Shown here: piece by piece, positions 658-4,704 of the stretch
Position numbering within the stretch: position 1 is the stretch's first letter
How the letters are laid out: the number at the start of each line of letters is the position of its first letter
Virus record (IMG/VR): IMGVR_UViG_3300014919_000025
Location: 1 to 4,704 of that record
DNA from: a virus
Taxonomy: Duplodnaviria; Heunggongvirae; Uroviricota; Caudoviricetes
Reading direction: 5' to 3' (one strand)
DNA length: 4,704 nucleotides
The notes under the pieces: generated by a model
What the model saw: only the letters and a program-made list of their open reading frames with translations
Told to the model about the DNA's origin: nothing
The model's database searches: none
Translations under genes and position numbers: made by a program

Positions 658-878
658 GCAGCACCTCCGAGATGCTTCATGTTTTTTCCGGAGCGAAAGG
701 CTATAAGCGGCATACTGACGCGGTAATTACGGCCCAGCGGTTCACAAATCACCTTCTGACATTCACGGTCAACCAGGCTAACACGTAGAACATGCCCTGC
801 AGGCGTGGTGTACCACTGACCCGGACGAGGACAACGGAAAGTATGATTGGTAAACCGTTTGAAAATATTCCGGATCAT
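654..878 (-). CDS. Hypothetical small protein (74 aa), translationally coupled between Rha copy A and the replication gene
   Basis: ORF-track ORF. Its ATG (878-876) overlaps the Rha copy-A stop as ATGA (875-878), and its stop overlaps the next ATG as ATGA (654-657). An AGGGGG Shine-Dalgarno-like motif lies 5 nt upstream of the ATG. No recognisable domain. Confidence 0.4.
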   Translation of the reverse strand: MIRNIFKRFTNHTFRCPRPGQWYTTPAGHVLRVSLVDRECQKVICEPLGRNYRVSMPLIAFRSGKNMKHLGGAA

Positions 879-1756
879 TTACGCCCCCTTACCTCTGAAG
901 GGTTCAGCGACAAATTTATGAGACTGGCCAGTAGCGCCGCGTCGTTGATGCGGTCATACAGACTTACAGCCAGCGGGGATTCGGCTTTTGCCAACATGGG
1001 ATAAAGCTGCTGCAGCCAGACCTTGTGGATTACCGACAGGTGGGAGTAAAGCACGCTGGCGTTATCTGCGGCATCGCTCAGCGTGGATGGCTTTGAAAGC
1101 AGTTTTTCCATCTGGTTAAAGGCATTGATGTATGCCTCTTTGAACCGGGCAGCACGTTTACCCGTGAAACCCATAGCAAGAAACGCAAAACCGTCTCGTG
1201 TGATTTGATAGCAAAGGAGCTTGCGTGTACCACCGTTCGGTTGATTTACCGAAATCGATGTCTCCGCAAAATTGCGGGCACAAAACTCAGGGGAACAATC
1301 CAGAGTGCGGATCTTTTTCAGCACATCGTCGTGACGCTTGGAGAAGAAGTTGGCAACAGCCAAAGAAGTGGTAACGGCCTGGCCGTTGTCAATGGTGATT
1401 TCAGGTTGAGTGAGGGCTGGGATCGTAGCCATGATGGCAGCCTCCGTTGACAGTGAAAAACTTCCACCACCGGAAACGCCAATTTCACTGGTGGTGAACT
1501 GGACGGGGTTGGCGTAACCGGCGTCAACGGAGACCGGCGCACCTTTCGGTGCCCCCGCCCAGCCCACCATAATCTGGATGTGAGCAAATGCGGACGATAA
1601 AAAAGACGCTGGCGCGTCATACATCGCCGTTGACAATTTCAGGACGCCAATCCCGGCACCCGCTTTATAAGGTGCCTGAACAGTGTAACGTCCCGGAATT
1701 GCAGAATCAATATGCTGGTGGCGATTGGTAAACAGTTTGAAAATATTCCGGATCAT
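875..1756 (-). CDS. Rha-family phage regulatory protein, copy A. The full ORF is 293 aa; the Rha domain is the C-terminal 185 aa (875-1432) and has its own SD+ATG
   Basis: Rha hallmarks are present: FFSKRHDDVLKKIRTL and YQITRDGFAFLAMGFTGKRAARFKEAYINAFNQMEK. An internal start ATG at 1432-1430 is preceded by GGAGG (1441-1445 on plus) with an 8-nt spacer. The ORF is also open upstream to an ATG at 1756 that overlaps the copy-B stop (ATGA 1753-1756). Which start is used cannot be decided from sequence alone. Confidence 0.6.
   Translation of the reverse strand: MIRNIFKLFTNRHQHIDSAIPGRYTVQAPYKAGAGIGVLKLSTAMYDAPASFLSSAFAHIQIMVGWAGAPKGAPVSVDAGYANPVQFTTSEIGVSGGGSFSLSTEAAIMATIPALTQPEITIDNGQAVTTSLAVANFFSKRHDDVLKKIRTLDCSPEFCARNFAETSISVNQPNGGTRKLLCYQITRDGFAFLAMGFTGKRAARFKEAYINAFNQMEKLLSKPSTLSDAADNASVLYSHLSVIHKVWLQQLYPMLAKAESPLAVSLYDRINDAALLASLINLSLNPSEVRGRK
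1599..1618 (-). terminator. Terminator-like hairpin plus U-run inside the leader of Rha copy A (possible attenuator)
   Basis: On the minus strand, GACGC-gcca-GCGTC (plus 1605-1618) is followed directly by UUUUUU (plus 1604-1599). The stem is only 5 bp and the element lies within an open reading frame, so confidence is low. Confidence 0.3.
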
Positions 1757-2898
1757 TTACGCCCCCTTACCTCTGAAGGATTCAGCGACAAATTTATGAG
1801 GCAGGCCAGCGCCGAAGCATCATTAATATAGTCATACAAGCTAACAGCCAGCGGAGATTCGGCTTTTGCCAACATAGGATAAAGCTGCTGCAGCCAGACC
1901 TGATGAATTGATGAAATGTAGGAATAGAGAACGCTGGCGTTATGTGCAACGTCGCTCAGTACAGAGGGATTTGAAAGCTGTTTCTCCATCTGGTTAAAGG
2001 CATTGATGTATGCCTCTTTGAACCGGGCAGCACGTTTCCCCGTGAAGCCCATGGCAAGAAACGCAAAACCGTCGCGGGTGATTTGGTAACAAGGGAGTTT
2101 GCGGCCTGTGCAATCGGTGTAATCACTGGGCTGAAAATTCAGCTCAGTGAATTCAACAGAGCACTCAAGCGTCTGGATTTTTTGAATAACGTTTTTGTGC
2201 TGCTTGCAGAAATATTCGGCAACGGCCAAAGAAGAGGTAACAGCCTTCCCATGGATAACATCAATTTTAGGGTGAGTTTGGGTAGGGGTGGTTGCCATAG
2301 TGACATCCTCATGTGCGAATTTTGAAAACTCACCACATGGGACGCCAATCACAGAGGTGGTGAGACGTACAGGGTTGGCGTAACCGGTCGCACATGACCC
2401 CGGCGCATCTTTCGATGCCCCTGCACGCCCCACCATAATTTGGATGTGAGGAAACGTGCGCAAAAAAACCGCTGAAGCGCGGTTATGCGCATGTGCGAAT
2501 TTCAGGACGCCAATCCCGGCACCCGCTTTATAAGGTGCCTGAACAGTGTAACGTCCCGGAATTGCAGAATCAATATGCTGGTGGTCCTTCACACTCAACA
2601 AAATCACGCCTGAATTTCCACAAAGGACTAAAGCACTCATGCGGGTAGTCTTTGCGAAGATAGATAACGCGCTGTGTTTCTGGCTCCCAACGAATAACAT
2701 GGACATAAAGCCCTCTTCCGTCACGAAACCAGCGGTTAAGTTCCTGCACAACTCGCCCCCCACAGTCAGGTAAAGTTCTCTGTGGTTACTTACAGCCAGG
2801 TGATTTGGTAATCTGCATTCATGCCGTAACAACAGGTGTTCAGCGACGCTGACCACCAGCTGTTGCGACAAACGGTTATTTGCCGTTAAACTATTCAT
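1753..2898 (-). CDS. Rha-family phage regulatory protein, copy B, as a composite 381-aa ORF: a Cys/His-containing N-terminal region of about 105 aa, a leader of about 95 aa, and a Rha domain (1753-2298, 181 aa) with its own SD+ATG
   Basis: Rha motifs are present: YFCKQHKNVIQKIQTL and the identical core YQITRDGFAFLAMGFTGKRAARFKEAYINAFNQMEK. The internal ATG at 2298-2296 is preceded by GAGGA (2306-2310 on plus) with a 7-nt spacer. The ATG at 2898 overlaps the stop of the upstream 185-aa gene (ATGA 2895-2898). There is no in-frame stop between 2898 and the Rha domain. Confidence 0.55.
   Translation of the reverse strand: MNSLTANNRLSQQLVVSVAEHLLLRHECRLPNHLAVSNHRELYLTVGGELCRNLTAGFVTEEGFMSMLFVGSQKHSALSIFAKTTRMSALVLCGNSGVILLSVKDHQHIDSAIPGRYTVQAPYKAGAGIGVLKFAHAHNRASAVFLRTFPHIQIMVGRAGASKDAPGSCATGYANPVRLTTSVIGVPCGEFSKFAHEDVTMATTPTQTHPKIDVIHGKAVTSSLAVAEYFCKQHKNVIQKIQTLECSVEFTELNFQPSDYTDCTGRKLPCYQITRDGFAFLAMGFTGKRAARFKEAYINAFNQMEKQLSNPSVLSDVAHNASVLYSYISSIHQVWLQQLYPMLAKAESPLAVSLYDYINDASALACLINLSLNPSEVRGRK
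2462..2484 (-). terminator. Terminator-like hairpin plus U-run inside the leader of Rha copy B (possible attenuator)
   Basis: On the minus strand, AACCGC-gcuuca-GCGGUU (plus 2467-2484) sits next to a run of seven U (plus 2468-2462). It is at the position equivalent to the copy-A element but with a different stem sequence. Confidence 0.3.
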
Positions 2899-3452
2899 GC
2901 GTTAGTTTCTCCACAACCAGAAGCAATCGACGCCACGACGCCCGGAGCTGCACACTCGCGGGCGTTACTCTTTTCTGGAGCGCAGAAGATTTTGTAGACC
3001 AGTGCTGCATGCTCCTGGAGCTTCGAAATTGAAAGATACAGTTCGTCGTTAATTGCTGTCTTCTCATGCGGTTCCACTACACCGTCTTCGATTGCTGAAC
3101 GAATCTGTCTGGAATAACTGCCGATCTGTTCAATGACTTCCAGCAGGCGCTGGTTTATATCGGCGTTCTCTACTGCCTCAATTTCAGGAAGCGATACGAA
3201 CACCCCACCAGCAGACTGTGCGACAGCATCCGCAATGTAGTGAGTGCCAGCCGCACGCTGTAAAACCATTGCCCATCCCAGCGGGAAAATCTGATCGCCA
3301 TCTGCACGAAGGCGGTTGAATAATGCGTTCTCTGTTACATCCAGCCACTCAGCAGCTTCAGCGTAACCCCCCGGCAACGCCGCGATAGTTTTTCTGACAG
3401 CTTTCACGTACCACTCAGGCTGTTTTTCCACTTTCCAGTGATGATTACCCAC
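2895..3452 (-). CDS. Hypothetical regulatory protein at the cII position of the operon (185 aa), possibly CII/YdaT-like
   Basis: ORF-track ORF with a GTG start at 3452, preceded by AGGAGG (revcomp of 3460-3465) with a 7-nt spacer. The start overlaps the cro-like stop by 8 nt. The functional call rests on position only and is a weak inference. Confidence 0.55.
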   Translation of the reverse strand: MGNHHWKVEKQPEWYVKAVRKTIAALPGGYAEAAEWLDVTENALFNRLRADGDQIFPLGWAMVLQRAAGTHYIADAVAQSAGGVFVSLPEIEAVENADINQRLLEVIEQIGSYSRQIRSAIEDGVVEPHEKTAINDELYLSISKLQEHAALVYKIFCAPEKSNARECAAPGVVASIASGCGETNA

Positions 3453-3705
3453 GGCTTACCTCCTGTTCCTGTGGTTTAAACCCATTCTGGTTTTGGCTAG
3501 ATTGAAAACGTGCCGGATAAAGAATCTGCATTTCGCTGATTTCACCCTTAAAAAAATTGGCCAGACGTTCTGCAAGATCGATAGATGGAATTTGTTCCAG
3601 CCTTTCAATACGACTCAGCGTCGCTGGATTGACCTGAACGCCAGCAGCAACATGCTGCAAAGTAAATCCGTGCGCCTTACGCACACTCCGTAATGGTGAT
3701 TGCAT
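3445..3705 (-). CDS. Cro-like XRE-family HTH transcriptional regulator (86 aa)
   Basis: Small HTH protein (GFTLQHVAAGVQVNPATLSRIERLEQIPSIDLAERLANFF) transcribed divergently from the repressor gene. GGAGGT lies immediately upstream of the ATG (revcomp of 3709-3714). It is the first gene of the minus-strand operon. Confidence 0.7.
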   Translation of the reverse strand: MQSPLRSVRKAHGFTLQHVAAGVQVNPATLSRIERLEQIPSIDLAERLANFFKGEISEMQILYPARFQSSQNQNGFKPQEQEVSRG

Positions 3706-3802
3706 ATGACCTCCACATATTGCGTGATGAGCATATTATTTCACGCAAATATTTTGCGCAAGTTGATTTGCTTAACGCGCAATAAAGAAATGTAATAAAC
3801 GC
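3706..3802. promoter_or_regulatory. Divergent promoter/operator region between the cro-like and cI-like genes (OR-like)
   Basis: A 97-bp AT-rich intergenic region carries several related dyad half-sites. These are TTGCGTGA (3720-3727), CGCAA-N5-TTGCG (3744-3758), the palindrome TTGCGCAA (3754-3761) and TTGCT-N5-CGCAA (3768-3782). A candidate minus-strand promoter for cro has -35 TTGCGC (3756-3761) and -10 TAATAT (3733-3738) with a 17-bp spacer. A candidate plus-strand -10 TAATAA (3793-3798) sits just upstream of the repressor ATG. Confidence 0.55.
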
Positions 3803-4495
3803 ATGAACATAGGAAACCGAGTCAGACAACTTCGCCAGGCGAAGAACATGAAAATCGCCGATCTCGCTGAAGCAATAGGAGTGGATGCGGCGAATATCTC
3901 ACGCCTGGAAACAGGTAAGCAGAAACAATTCACTGAACAAGCCCTGAGTAATATTGCCAGGAGCTTAGGTGTTGATATCGCTGATCTCTTTACCTCAGAC
4001 GTCAAAAGTAATACTGTATGTAAAAACAGTATTGGTGAGGATGTTGCGCAGGTGAAGGATGTATTCCGTATTGAAATGCTGGATGTCAGTGCCAGTGCGG
4101 GAAATGGCCTTATCCAGGGCGGTGATGTCATTGATGTGATTCATGCCATTGAATACAGAACTGATAATGCTGTATCGATGTTTGGCGGACGGCCAGCCAA
4201 TCACATTAAAGTTATCAACGTTCGTGGGGACAGTATGTGTCCAACCATTGAGCCAGGAGATCTCATCTTCGTTGATATCAGTATCAATCAGTTTGATGGG
4301 GATGGTATATATGTATTTGGTTTTGATGATAAAATTTACGTCAAACGACTGCAAATGATACCTGATAAACTGCTGGTAATTTCTGATAATCAGATTTACC
4401 GCGAATGGGGAATTACCAGCGAAAACGAACATCGGTTTATGGTCTTTGGAAAGGTCTTAATCAGTCAGTCACAAACCCTTAAGCGACACAATTAA
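3803..4495 (+). CDS. cI-like prophage repressor (230 aa): N-terminal XRE-type HTH plus C-terminal LexA/S24-type autopeptidase domain
   Basis: The N-terminus NIGNRVRQLRQAKNMKIADLAEAIGVDAANISRLETGK is a canonical HTH. The C-terminal domain has the nucleophile in VRGDSM (Ser144) and the general base in YVKRL (Lys181), spaced 37 residues apart as in LexA. A candidate Ala-Gly cleavage site is SASA-GNG (Ala99-Gly100). Confidence 0.85.
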   Translation: MNIGNRVRQLRQAKNMKIADLAEAIGVDAANISRLETGKQKQFTEQALSNIARSLGVDIADLFTSDVKSNTVCKNSIGEDVAQVKDVFRIEMLDVSASAGNGLIQGGDVIDVIHAIEYRTDNAVSMFGGRPANHIKVINVRGDSMCPTIEPGDLIFVDISINQFDGDGIYVFGFDDKIYVKRLQMIPDKLLVISDNQIYREWGITSENEHRFMVFGKVLISQSQTLKRHN

Positions 4496-4515
4496 CCCCT
4501 ACCTCAACATCAATT

Positions 4516-4537
4516 AGCCACCAGAAGGTGGCTTTTC
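4516..4537 (+). terminator. Rho-independent terminator downstream of the repressor gene
   Basis: AGCCACC-agaa-GGTGGCT is a perfect 7-bp stem with a 4-nt loop, followed by TTTT, starting 21 nt after the repressor stop. Confidence 0.55.
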
Positions 4538-4550
4538 ATTACCCACCAAA

Positions 4551-4603
4551 TTGCATATCTCGCAATAAAAACACTTGCATAATGCGCAACTTCATTTTAT
4601 CTT
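4551..4603 (+). promoter_or_regulatory. Second operator-like cluster with a possible plus-strand promoter (OL/PL-like)
   Basis: Two 15-bp sites, TTGCATATCTCGCAA (4551-4565) and TTGCATAATGCGCAA (4575-4589), fit the TTGCG-N5-CGCAA dyad seen in the cI/cro intergenic region. A possible -35 TTGCAT (4575-4580) and -10 TATCTT (4598-4603) have a 17-bp spacer. Promoter direction and function are inferred. Confidence 0.35.
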
Positions 4604-4704
4604 TCTTTCCAGACATACAAACAAGGTACTAACAAAATTTGGTTGTAACACGGCGTATGGCACATGCGTCGTTAGCGGTCTGGTGACGTTAAAGGGGACA
4701 ATCC

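What the first reader, a model, noticed from the sequence alone, without database searches (positions are those of the whole stretch)
4551..4603. Second cluster of the same operator motif downstream of the repressor gene (OL-like), suggesting looping and a second regulated promoter
TTGCATATCTCGCAA (4551-4565) and TTGCATAATGCGCAA (4575-4589) match the TTGCG-N5-CGCAA dyad with one mismatch each. They lie about 800 bp from the cI/cro cluster, immediately after the repressor terminator, and overlap a possible promoter (-35 4575-4580, -10 4598-4603). In lambda, OL/PL and OR/PR flank cI and cooperate through DNA looping; the arrangement here is analogous but more compact.
Basis: partly seen in the sequence, partly recalled or inferred. 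Interest (0 to 1): 0.45.

Follow-up and report, generated by a model that had tools for sequence, protein, structure and literature searches.

The report
Left operator-promoter of a lambdoid prophage
The two short palindromes just after the phage repressor gene are very probably the repressor's second set of binding sites, sitting on the promoter for the phage's early-left genes; this is the textbook lambda-type layout, seen here for a repressor specificity that nobody appears to have characterised.

Summary
TTGCATATCTCGCAA (4551-4565) and TTGCATAATGCGCAA (4575-4589) lie 13 nt after the cI terminator. TTGC-N7-GCAA occurs 4 times in the window against 0.18 expected.

The OL/PL reading is strongly supported by comparison:
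- In cI homologues down to 67% identity across six genera, the outer TTGC…CGCAA bases and a TATnnT hexamer 8 nt downstream are invariant. The central bases, flanks and spacer vary.
- In heteroimmune relatives on the same backbone, the swapped cassette runs from inside cro to window 4630, so it includes both sites and the promoter.
- Cassettes B (SfV, cdtI) and C (mEp460_4F5) each carry their own dyad at OR and again at a promoter just after cI.
- The operator-promoter reassorts with the repressor, not with the downstream leader.

Caveats:
- The promoter matches the sigma-70 consensus at only 7 of 12 positions.
- There are two sites, not three.
- There is no N/nut.
- OL-OR looping is untested analogy.
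- No binding or transcription data exist.

Verdict: an ordinary lambdoid OL/PL, a new member of a known kind.

Side observation: PL transcribes into a ~590-nt structured, terminator-containing leader. Its first ~190 nt (from window ~4636) is a conserved structured RNA with compensatory changes and no Rfam family. It also occurs in P1 and epsilon15-like phages.

The parts
3445..3705 (-). cro-like gene (86 aa, single HTH_3 domain), divergent from cI
   Evidence: ORF list; Pfam HTH_3, E = 5.9e-10. Annotated Cro in mEp460, SfII and WGPS2.
3720..3734 (.). OR site next to cro: TTGCGTGATGAGCAT. It overlaps the -10 hexamer and start of the candidate PR.
   Evidence: TTGC-N7-GCAT is present at the same position in all 10 diverged loci, with variable central bases. 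Candidate PR on the minus strand is TTGCGC-17-TAATAT, 3761->3733.
3754..3762 (.). Invariant TTGCGCAAG block in OR (TTGCGCAA is palindromic). It contains the candidate PR -35 hexamer.
   Evidence: Identical in all relatives down to 67% cI identity, while neighbouring bases vary.
3768..3782 (.). OR site next to cI: TTGCTTAACGCGCAA. It overlaps the candidate PRM -35 hexamer.
   Evidence: Always 48 bp (start to start) from the 3720 site: 91 of 93 loci.
3803..4495 (+). cI-type repressor (230 aa): XRE/434-type HTH plus a Peptidase_S24 autocleavage domain
   Evidence: Pfam Peptidase_S24 (5.8e-19) and HTH_26/HTH_3. PDB sequence hits to a 434-type HTH and to UmuD'. Ala99-Gly100, Ser144 and Lys181 were read from the translation by analogy with LexA; this is inference.
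4516..4538 (+). Intrinsic terminator of cI: a 7-bp stem (5 G-C pairs) followed by TTTTCATT
   Evidence: Annotated as a terminator in SfII. The stem is kept in diverged relatives with different sequence.
4551..4565 (.). OL2, the distal operator: TTGCATATCTCGCAA (about -60 to -46 relative to the predicted start)
   Evidence: Nine natural variants differ only at positions 5-10 or at the last base. Present in 89 of 93 A-type loci.
4566..4574 (.). Spacer between the operators, taaaaacac (A-rich in the window), 7-9 nt long in relatives
   Evidence: Length and sequence vary (9, 8 or 7 nt in 76, 11 and 2 loci). In the anchored alignment it is A/T-dominated in all eight loci, with no more than three G/C bases. 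A possible role as an UP-like or bendable element is inference.
4575..4589 (.). OL1, the promoter-proximal operator: TTGCATAATGCGCAA. It covers the PL -35 hexamer and the first 9 bp of the spacer.
   Evidence: The invariant columns are TTGC..A...CGCAA in eight loci spanning 67-100% cI identity.
4575..4603 (+). Candidate PL: -35 TTGCAT (4575-4580), 17-bp spacer, -10 TATCTT (4598-4603). Predicted start is near 4610-4611.
   Evidence: A TATnnT hexamer is found exactly 8 nt after OL1 in all eight diverged loci (TATCTT in six, TATCAT, TATGGT) while the flanks are unconserved. TATCTT occurs in 88 of 89 loci. Cassettes B and C have promoters at the equivalent place, and one is annotated in phage Ayreon. 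The start site is inferred.
4630..4631 (.). Right-hand boundary of the exchangeable immunity cassette (the left boundary is near 3480, inside cro)
   Evidence: Homology with Stx2c phage LC727876 stops at window 3480 and resumes at 4631 with 100% identity.
4636..4704 (+). First 69 nt of a conserved ~190-nt structured RNA element at the 5' end of the PL transcript. It continues beyond the window.
   Evidence: Alignment A1. RNAalifold finds 38 pairs, 9 of them compensatory. 96.6% of cells are paired against 34-44% with slid partners. No Rfam match.

Best explanation
Window 4551-4603 is the left operator-promoter (OL/PL) of a lambdoid prophage immunity module.

Proposed mechanism:
1. Dimers of the cI-type repressor (3803-4495) bind the two 15-bp dyads TTGC-N7-GCAA, whose centres are 24 bp apart. 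Binding is probably cooperative.
2. OL1 (4575-4589) is also the -35 hexamer and upstream spacer of PL, so bound repressor excludes RNA polymerase. OL2 (4551-4565) stabilises occupancy.
3. In a lysogen this silences the early-left operon, while cI transcripts end at the terminator just upstream (4516-4538).
4. After SOS-induced self-cleavage of cI (S24 domain), PL fires near 4610.
5. PL transcribes a ~590-nt structured, terminator-containing leader and then the early-left genes (a 120-aa ORF, yfdQ, yfdR ... xis, int).
6. Cro probably uses the same sites later.

Shown here: the sites, their specificity to the two regions flanking cI, their conservation pattern, their inheritance together with cI, and the gene layout downstream.

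Inferred: repressor binding, cooperativity, promoter activity and start site, SOS cleavage, and any OL-OR loop.
For: 1. Motif enrichment and clustering. A blind search for dyads shared between OR and the 200 bp after cI returns only TTGC/15. In the null, 0.02% of random segment pairs share a dyad type with three or more occurrences.
2. Phylogenetic footprint. In cI homologues of 96-67% identity from Shigella, Citrobacter, Buttiauxella and Trabulsiella, the pair recurs just after the terminator. TTGC, CGCAA and TATnnT are invariant, while the central bases, spacer length and flanks vary. Across 93 loci, 89 have the pair, and the nine variants of each site differ only at positions 5-10 or the last base.
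3. Module-level covariation. The swapped immunity cassette spans about 3481-4630. Cassette B (SfV, cdtI, Stx2c, PhiR49_1) has GTACC-N5-GRTAC at OR and inside TTGACA...CATAAT after cI. Cassette C (mEp460_4F5) has CTAAG...CTTAG at both places. Motifs A and B never occur in each other's loci. The cassettes reassort with two leader types: A+1, A+2, B+1, B+2.
4. Layout. The sites are followed by a co-directional early-left operon, and no other promoter candidate was identified between the cI terminator and its first gene.
5. The repressor is an HTH plus S24 protein, and its recognition region is conserved wherever the motif is conserved.
Against: - The promoter matches the consensus at only 7 of 12 positions (-35 at 3 of 6), and the standard scan did not call it.
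- There are only two sites, against three in lambda.
- Three diverged loci lack a full pair. L015 has one strict and one degenerate site, L017 has one, and L016 has none. In L016 the prophage ends at a tRNA.
- There are no binding, footprint, start-site or reporter data, and no paper describing operators of this immunity type was found.
- Looping has no evidence here.
Confidence: 0.85

Rival explanations
1. The sites are real repressor sites but are auxiliary only. They would act as flanking clamp sites that strengthen OR repression by looping (like the FL/FR sites of phage 186), without a promoter of their own. The early-left operon would then be driven from elsewhere.
For: The promoter has a weak consensus match. 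The pair-plus-pair geometry, about 800 bp apart, would suit a loop.
Against: A TATnnT hexamer is conserved at a fixed 8-nt distance from OL1 while everything around it diverges. Cassettes B and C have near-consensus promoters at the equivalent position. No alternative promoter candidate was identified between the cI terminator and the early-left genes. The candidate PR of the same phage uses the same weak TTGCxx type of -35 hexamer.
Confidence: 0.06
2. The sites control a minus-strand promoter (TTTGTA-16-TAAAAT, 4621->4594) that fires back towards cI, making an antisense or convergent transcript.
For: This candidate scores 8 of 12, slightly better than the plus-strand one.
Against: Its hexamers are not conserved. 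The -10 hexamer becomes TAAAAG or TAAACC in L018 and L019, and the -35 region differs in L013, L014 and L018. It would run straight into the terminator stem. The operators would lie downstream of its start.
Confidence: 0.03
3. The two 15-mers are a chance or relic repeat with no regulatory role.
For: A motif with eight specified bases does occur by chance elsewhere in the genome (three sites outside the immunity region; window 2099).
Against: The 920-bp segment around cI holds 3 strict sites against 0.03 expected. The position-specific conservation pattern extends across six genera. Two other immunity cassettes show the parallel arrangement.
Confidence: 0.02

Closest known systems
Bacteriophage lambda OL/PL (with OR/PR/PRM)
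   Same: - Divergent cI and cro genes with operators between them.
- A second cluster of the same dyad on the far side of cI.
- That cluster overlaps a promoter which points away from cI into the early-left (recombination, xis, int) operon.
- Adjacent operators have centres 24 bp apart.
- The repressor is an HTH plus S24 protein.
   Different: - Two sites rather than three at OL.
- OL1 covers the -35 hexamer and spacer rather than the -10 hexamer and start.
- The dyad is 15 bp (TTGC-N7-GCAA) rather than 17 bp.
- No rexAB lies between cI and OL, so OL-OR separation is about 0.8 kb rather than 2.4 kb.
- There is no N gene or nutL; a ~590-nt structured leader with an intrinsic terminator takes that place.
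- The two strong OR sites are 48 bp apart, not adjacent.
- Looping and octamerisation are not shown.
Heteroimmune relatives SfV, cdtI and Stx2c phages (cassette B) and mEp460_4F5 (cassette C)
   Same: They share the backbone, cassette boundaries and architecture: two OR dyads 48-50 bp apart, a cI terminator, then a promoter carrying the cassette's own dyad. A post-cI promoter is annotated in phage Ayreon. A 'putative operator region' is annotated at OR in SfV.
   Different: The repressors are unrelated over the DNA-binding domain; A and B align only over 39 residues of the S24 domain. The dyads differ (GTACC-N5-GRTAC and CTAAG...CTTAG). Cassette B has a near-consensus promoter (TTGACA...CATAAT) with the operator between the hexamers.
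Phage HK022 (N-less lambdoid using cis-acting put RNA just downstream of PL)
   Same: There is no N homologue in this phage group (PMC3851460, for SfII, SfV and SfIV). A structured RNA lies close to the PL start and ahead of terminators.
   Different: A profile of the ~190-nt element finds nothing in the HK022 early region, even at E up to 10. put is about 70 nt with two stems (PMC9378689), whereas this element is about 190 nt with at least five helices. Antitermination activity is untested.
Phage 186 CI flanking sites FL/FR
   Same: Auxiliary repressor sites lie some hundreds of bp from the main switch and could cooperate with it by looping.
   Different: The 186 flanking sites are not at a major early promoter. 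Here the sites coincide with a conserved promoter-like element, and the repressor is of the lambda/LexA type, not the 186 CI type. This comparison rests on my own knowledge of the 186 literature.

Membership tests
Lambdoid OL/PL-type operator-promoter | A cognate repressor of the HTH plus S24 (LexA-like) type is encoded next to it | tested here: met
   Pfam Peptidase_S24 (5.8e-19) and HTH_3/HTH_26.
Lambdoid OL/PL-type operator-promoter | The same dyad-symmetric motif as at OR, clustered on the far side of cI and otherwise rare in the genome | tested here: met
Lambdoid OL/PL-type operator-promoter | Operators overlap a sigma-70 promoter that points away from cI into the early-left operon | tested here: inconclusive
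   The geometry and the conservation of TTGCxx-17-TATnnT are met, and the downstream operon is co-directional. The consensus match is only 7 of 12 and no transcript data exist.
Lambdoid OL/PL-type operator-promoter | It belongs to the immunity module, so it is exchanged together with cI and cro in heteroimmune relatives | tested here: met
   The cassette spans about 3481-4630. Three cassettes each have their own dyad at both loci, and they reassort with two leader types.
Lambdoid OL/PL-type operator-promoter | Repressor binding and repression of the promoter | not testable with these tools
   This needs EMSA or footprinting and reporter assays.
Lambda-specific OL architecture | Three adjacent operator sites (OL1-OL3) | tested here: not met
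   Only two sites are present in any A-type locus.
Lambda-specific OL architecture | N gene and nutL immediately downstream of PL | tested here: not met
   There is no convincing ORF in the ~590-nt leader. The first ORF (120 aa) has no Pfam match, and its N-terminus, read directly from the translation, is not arginine-rich. SfII, SfV and SfIV are reported to lack N (PMC3851460).
Lambda-specific OL architecture | Long-range OL-OR looping through repressor octamers | not testable with these tools
   Only the geometry is known: pairs of sites about 780-820 bp apart.
HK022 put-type antiterminator RNA (considered for the leader) | Sequence or profile similarity to putL/putR, and a ~70-nt two-stem architecture | tested here: not met
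   nhmmer with the A1 profile finds nothing in HK022. The element is about 190 nt with seven helices.
SfV/P4-type transcription-termination immunity (considered for the leader) | An intrinsic terminator in the early leader whose read-through is controlled | tested here: inconclusive
   A terminator hairpin plus U-run (L003 6616-6661) is shared at 96% identity with SfV (L100 about 2503-2548). The trans-acting RNA and its targets are not identified, and the SfV paper (Roberts et al. 2007, cited in PMC3475682) could not be read.

The most novel reading that the evidence does not exclude
In this N-less group of lambdoid phages, PL does not lead into an N/nut system. It leads directly into a previously undescribed, horizontally mobile ~190-nt structured RNA (window 4636 onward). 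The same RNA occurs between trnI and ban in P1 and P7, between the terminase and portal modules of epsilon15-like phages, and after the repressor gene of mEp390. Under this reading the RNA controls read-through of the intrinsic terminator about 400 nt downstream, either as an RNA-only early antiterminator or as a termination-based immunity device. The OL/PL found here would then be the repressor-controlled switch for a new class of regulatory RNA.
Probability: 0.25. Interest if true: 0.65.

Novelty: new member of a known kind. Interest (0 to 1): 0.25.

Why it matters
This immunity type is common. Homologous sequence occurs in 2806 of 5426 complete E. coli genomes, with near-full-length copies in 1040, including the O104:H4 outbreak lineage. 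It also occurs in several Stx2-converting phages and in the Shigella serotype-converting phage SfII.

Knowing its operator sequence (TTGC-N7-GCAA) and its OL/PL allows three things:
- prediction of immunity groups from sequence;
- design of reporter or induction assays for these prophages;
- correct annotation of a region that GenBank records either leave empty or fill with doubtful ORFs.

Conceptually it adds nothing to the lambda paradigm. The more interesting lead is what PL transcribes.

Tried and rejected
- **Inverted dyad in OR.** CGCAA-N5-TTGCG at 3744-3758 would give three OR sites at 24-bp spacing. I rejected it as a conserved operator because the CGCAA at 3744 is absent in all relatives at or below 76% cI identity.
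- **Window site 2099-2113 (Rha gene).** It is conserved in mEp460 but lies in coding sequence, and its occurrence is at the genome-wide chance rate.
- **Minus-strand promoter at 4621->4594.** Its hexamers are not conserved.
- **Coding potential of the leader.** The only ORFs there are an 84-aa ORF with a TTG start that begins inside the operator, and two minus-strand ORFs annotated in mEp460. PGAP does not call any of these, the ATGATGATG string is absent from the P1-like copies, and the region shows RNA-type covariation.
- **Rfam.** No family matches the leader or any divergent copy of the element at E up to 1.
- **HK022 put.** No similarity was found.
- **Literature.** No paper was found on operators of the mEp460/SfII immunity type or on the trnI-ban interval of P1. 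Roberts et al. 2007 and Łobocka et al. 2004 are not held.
- **tRNA linkage of the RNA element.** It holds only in P1-like phages and phiV10, so it is not general.

Full report
**1. What the window is**

The window is the immunity and early-regulation region of a lambdoid prophage (ORFs, domains):

| Window coordinates | Strand | Feature |
|---|---|---|
| 3803-4495 | + | cI-type repressor (XRE/434-type HTH plus Peptidase_S24) |
| 3445-3705 | - | cro-like HTH gene, divergent from cI |
| 2895-3452 | - | CP76 (phage 186 CII-type) gene, annotated ymfL |
| 1753-2898 and 875-1756 | - | two Rha-family genes |
| 25-657 | - | start of a replication gene |

The window is 99-99.7% identical to coliphage mEp460 and to a prophage of E. 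coli O104:H4. It is about 96% identical to Stx2 phages 1720a-02 and WGPS2, and 90% identical to Shigella phage SfII.

**2. Observation check**

Matches to TTGCG-N5-CGCAA with one mismatch or fewer number 4 in the window against 0.32 expected, and 0 of 200 shuffles reach 4. The exact core TTGC-N7-GCAA gives 4 against 0.18 expected.

The sites start 13 nt after the cI terminator, which is a hairpin at 4516-4533 followed by a T-run. The proposed promoter is TTGCAT (4575-4580), a 17-bp spacer, then TATCTT (4598-4603). It matches the consensus at only 7 of 12 positions. The standard scan missed it and a relaxed scan finds it.

In the complete mEp460 genome, the 920 bp around cI hold 3 strict sites against 0.03 expected. 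The other 43.6 kb hold 3 against about 1.6 expected. The window hit at 2099, inside the Rha gene, is therefore chance-level.

The second real OR site, 3720-3734 (TTGCGTGATGAGCAT), has two mismatches and is identified by conservation.

**3. Phylogenetic footprint**

A scan of one genome per species returned eight loci encoding cI homologues of 96-67% identity. They come from Shigella, three Citrobacter species, Pseudescherichia, Klebsiella, Buttiauxella and Trabulsiella.

In every one, TTGC-N7-GCAT and TTGC-N7-GCAA sites sit at the equivalents of window 3720 and 3768, always 48 bp apart.

A pair of sites 22-24 bp apart (start to start) follows the cI terminator in the window-type loci, L012, L013, L014, L018 and L019. 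L015 has one strict and one degenerate site. L017 has one, in a truncated context. L016 has none, and there the prophage ends at a tRNA.

I anchored eight loci on the proximal site. The invariant columns are TTGC..A...CGCAA, then 8 nt, then TATnnT (TATCTT in six, TATCAT, TATGGT). Upstream and downstream flanks show essentially no conservation.

Among closer relatives the same rule holds. Substitutions fall in the central bases, in the flanks and in the inter-site spacer (9, 8 or 7 nt), never in the outer half-sites or the hexamers.

Across 93 A-type loci, 89 have the pair and 88 of those have TATCTT. The nine variants of each site differ only at positions 5-10 or at the last base. One locus (L076) has a natural T-to-C change in the first base of OL1, which is also the first base of the -35 hexamer.

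The helix-turn-helix region of cI is conserved wherever the motif is (ANISRLETGKQK or ANVSRVETGKQK).

**4. Module-level covariation**

This is the strongest argument.

Stx2c phage LC727876 shares the backbone, but homology to the window stops at 3480 (inside cro) and resumes at 4631 with 100% identity. The exchangeable immunity cassette is therefore about 3481-4630. It contains cro, OR, cI, the terminator, both proposed OL sites and the proposed promoter, and it ends about 20 nt past the predicted start.

The alternative cassette B (also in cdtI, Ayreon, 2H10, SfV and PhiR49_1) encodes a repressor that aligns with this one only over 39 residues of the S24 domain. It has its own dyad, GTACC-N5-GRTAC. 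This occurs twice in its OR, 50 bp apart, and again inside a near-consensus promoter (TTGACA...CATAAT) right after its cI terminator. Ayreon's depositors annotated a terminator and then a promoter there.

A third cassette C (mEp460_4F5) has CTAAG...CTTAG twice in OR (49 bp apart) and once in the post-cI promoter region.

Motifs A and B never occur in each other's loci.

The cassettes reassort with two different downstream leaders:

| Cassette | Leader 1 | Leader 2 |
|---|---|---|
| A | window | SfII |
| B | cdtI, Stx2c | SfV |

So the operator-promoter travels with the repressor and not with what it transcribes.

A blind search used 4-nt inverted arms and gaps of 4-9 nt. It looked for dyad types shared between OR and the 200 bp after cI, and returned exactly one type per cassette: TTGC/15, TGTA/17 and CTAA/14. 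In a null of 5000 random segment pairs, 2% share any type and 0.02% share one with three or more occurrences.

**5. What the promoter drives**

Beyond the window edge there are about 590 nt without a convincing ORF. After that comes a co-directional operon: a 120-aa ORF with no Pfam match, yfdQ (DUF2303), yfdR, eae/ead-type genes and, in SfII, xis and int. I identified no other promoter candidate between the cI terminator and this operon. This is the early-left operon position of lambda, but without N. SfII, SfV and SfIV are reported to lack N, cII and cIII homologues (PMC3851460).

**6. Most likely mechanism**

Repressor dimers occupy OL1, which doubles as the -35 hexamer and upstream spacer of PL. 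They also occupy OL2, 24 bp upstream across a short A/T-dominated spacer. Binding is probably cooperative, as for adjacent lambda operators. Occupancy excludes RNA polymerase.

SOS-induced self-cleavage of cI then derepresses PL. The cleavage residues (Ala99-Gly100, Ser144, Lys181) were read from the sequence by analogy with LexA, so this step is inference.

The phage's candidate PR (TTGCGC-17-TAATAT, 3761->3733) uses the same TTGCxx type of -35 hexamer embedded in a half-site. The weak -35 of PL is therefore in character for this immunity type.

Binding, cooperativity, promoter activity, the start site and any OL-OR loop are all inferred. Looping is compatible with two sites at each operator about 0.8 kb apart, but nothing here tests it.

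**7. Rivals**

- **Auxiliary looping sites without a promoter.** This is disfavoured by the fixed-distance conserved -10 hexamer, by the strong promoters at the same place in cassettes B and C, and by the lack of any other identified promoter candidate.
- **A minus-strand promoter at 4621->4594.** It scores 8 of 12, but its hexamers are not conserved.
- **Chance.** This is excluded by sections 2-4.

**8. Side finding: the leader RNA**

The 590-nt leader folds far better than shuffled versions (z = -5.9). It contains an intrinsic terminator (GCGGUACCAG...CUGGUACCGC followed by UCUUUUU, L003 6616-6661) and a 25-bp-arm hairpin (6662-6750). Both are shared at about 96% identity with SfV. SfV is the phage for which a transcription-termination-mediated immunity was reported (Roberts et al. 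2007, cited in PMC3475682). I could not read that paper.

The first ~190 nt of the leader start at window ~4636. They recur at 77-90% identity, with no convincing annotation, in unrelated contexts:
- directly after trnI and before ban in P1, P7, RCS47, D6 and SJ46;
- between the terminase and portal modules of epsilon15-like phiV10, TL-2011b, Tyrion and SPN1S;
- just after the repressor gene of mEp390;
- in Citrobacter prophages.

An eight-sequence alignment (A1) gives a consensus structure of 38 pairs in 7 helices, 9 of them with compensatory double changes. Of the cells, 96.6% are paired, against 34-44% when partners are slid. The covariation score is 0.27 against 0.04-0.10, and no shuffle reaches it.

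No Rfam 15 family matches any copy at E up to 1. A profile of the element finds nothing in HK022 or in the SfV-type leader.

This looks like an undescribed mobile structured RNA. Its function is unknown. A role in terminator read-through or in termination-based immunity is a hypothesis only.

**9. Comparison with known systems, and verdict**

Functionally and architecturally this is a lambda-type OL/PL. It meets the general defining features: the cognate HTH plus S24 repressor, the same dyad as at OR, an outward-facing position on the far side of cI, and membership of the exchangeable immunity module.

It fails the lambda-specific ones: three sites, and N/nutL downstream. Binding and looping cannot be tested here.

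No accessible paper or GenBank record that I examined describes the operators of this immunity type. I therefore rate it a new member of a known kind, of low-to-moderate interest (0.25). The more novel lead is the RNA that PL transcribes.

Noticed in passing
window 4636-4704, continuing to L003 6236-6430: A conserved ~190-nt structured RNA element with 38 pairs, 9 of them compensatory, and no Rfam family. It is also found between trnI and ban in P1-like phages, between the terminase and portal modules in epsilon15-like phages, after the repressor gene of mEp390, and in Citrobacter prophages. Nothing convincing is annotated over it.
   Followed up: partly
L003 6616-6780 (about 310-480 nt beyond the window's right edge); SfV L100 2503-2670: The PL leader contains a strong intrinsic terminator (a 10-bp perfect stem plus U-run), then a hairpin with 25-nt arms and a small hairpin just before the first early-left ORF. 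This block is about 96% identical in SfV, SfIV and SfII, although the 5' part of their leaders differs. The whole 590-nt leader folds with z = -5.9.
   Followed up: partly
window 3670-3684 (inside the cro 5' coding region); L018 1368-1382: An extra operator-like dyad lies about 50 bp from the cro-side OR site. It is a perfect TTGCGATTTTCGCAA in Buttiauxella and near-perfect in L015-L017, but degenerate (GTGCGCCTTACGCAC) in the window. It could be a third, intragenic operator in some relatives, or a by-product of conserved codons.
   Followed up: no
window 3754-3762: TTGCGCAAG, of which TTGCGCAA is palindromic (two abutting half-sites with no spacer), is invariant in every relative down to 67% cI identity, while its surroundings vary. 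It contains the candidate PR -35 hexamer and may have a further role, for example in PRM control.
   Followed up: partly
window 3786-3805: cI has no Shine-Dalgarno sequence. A conserved TGTAAT lies 6 nt before its ATG, so cI may be translated from a leaderless PRM transcript as in lambda. GenBank records disagree on the cI start: 648 bp in mEp460, 1720a-02 and WGPS2, against 693 bp in SfII and PGAP.
   Followed up: no
window 875-1756 and 1753-2898: The window has two tandem Rha-family paralogues (68% amino-acid identity; DNA repeats of 300, 138 and 123 nt at about 870-nt spacing). mEp460 and the O104:H4 prophage have a single copy.
   Followed up: partly
L001 5194-5747 (mEp460_036 and mEp460_037); L103 1811-2053; L102 2048-2299: Several deposited ORFs overlap the structured leader or RNA element, or an unannotated tRNA-Arg(UCU) in phiV10 (L102 2042-2118). 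They are probably annotation artefacts.
   Followed up: partly
L076 (IMGVR_UViG_2698536335_000003), equivalent of window 4575: This is a natural variant with T-to-C in the first base of OL1, which is also the first base of the -35 hexamer (CTGCATAATGCGCAA). It is the only one of the 90 closely related A-type loci (at least 90% cI identity) that lacks an intact pair.
   Followed up: no
L003 6253-6261 and 6572-6580: A perfect 9-nt complementarity (GGCGUAUGG / CCAUACGCC) links the 5' arm of the element's first hairpin to a segment just upstream of the leader terminator. This could be an alternative pairing that couples the element to terminator function.
   Followed up: no
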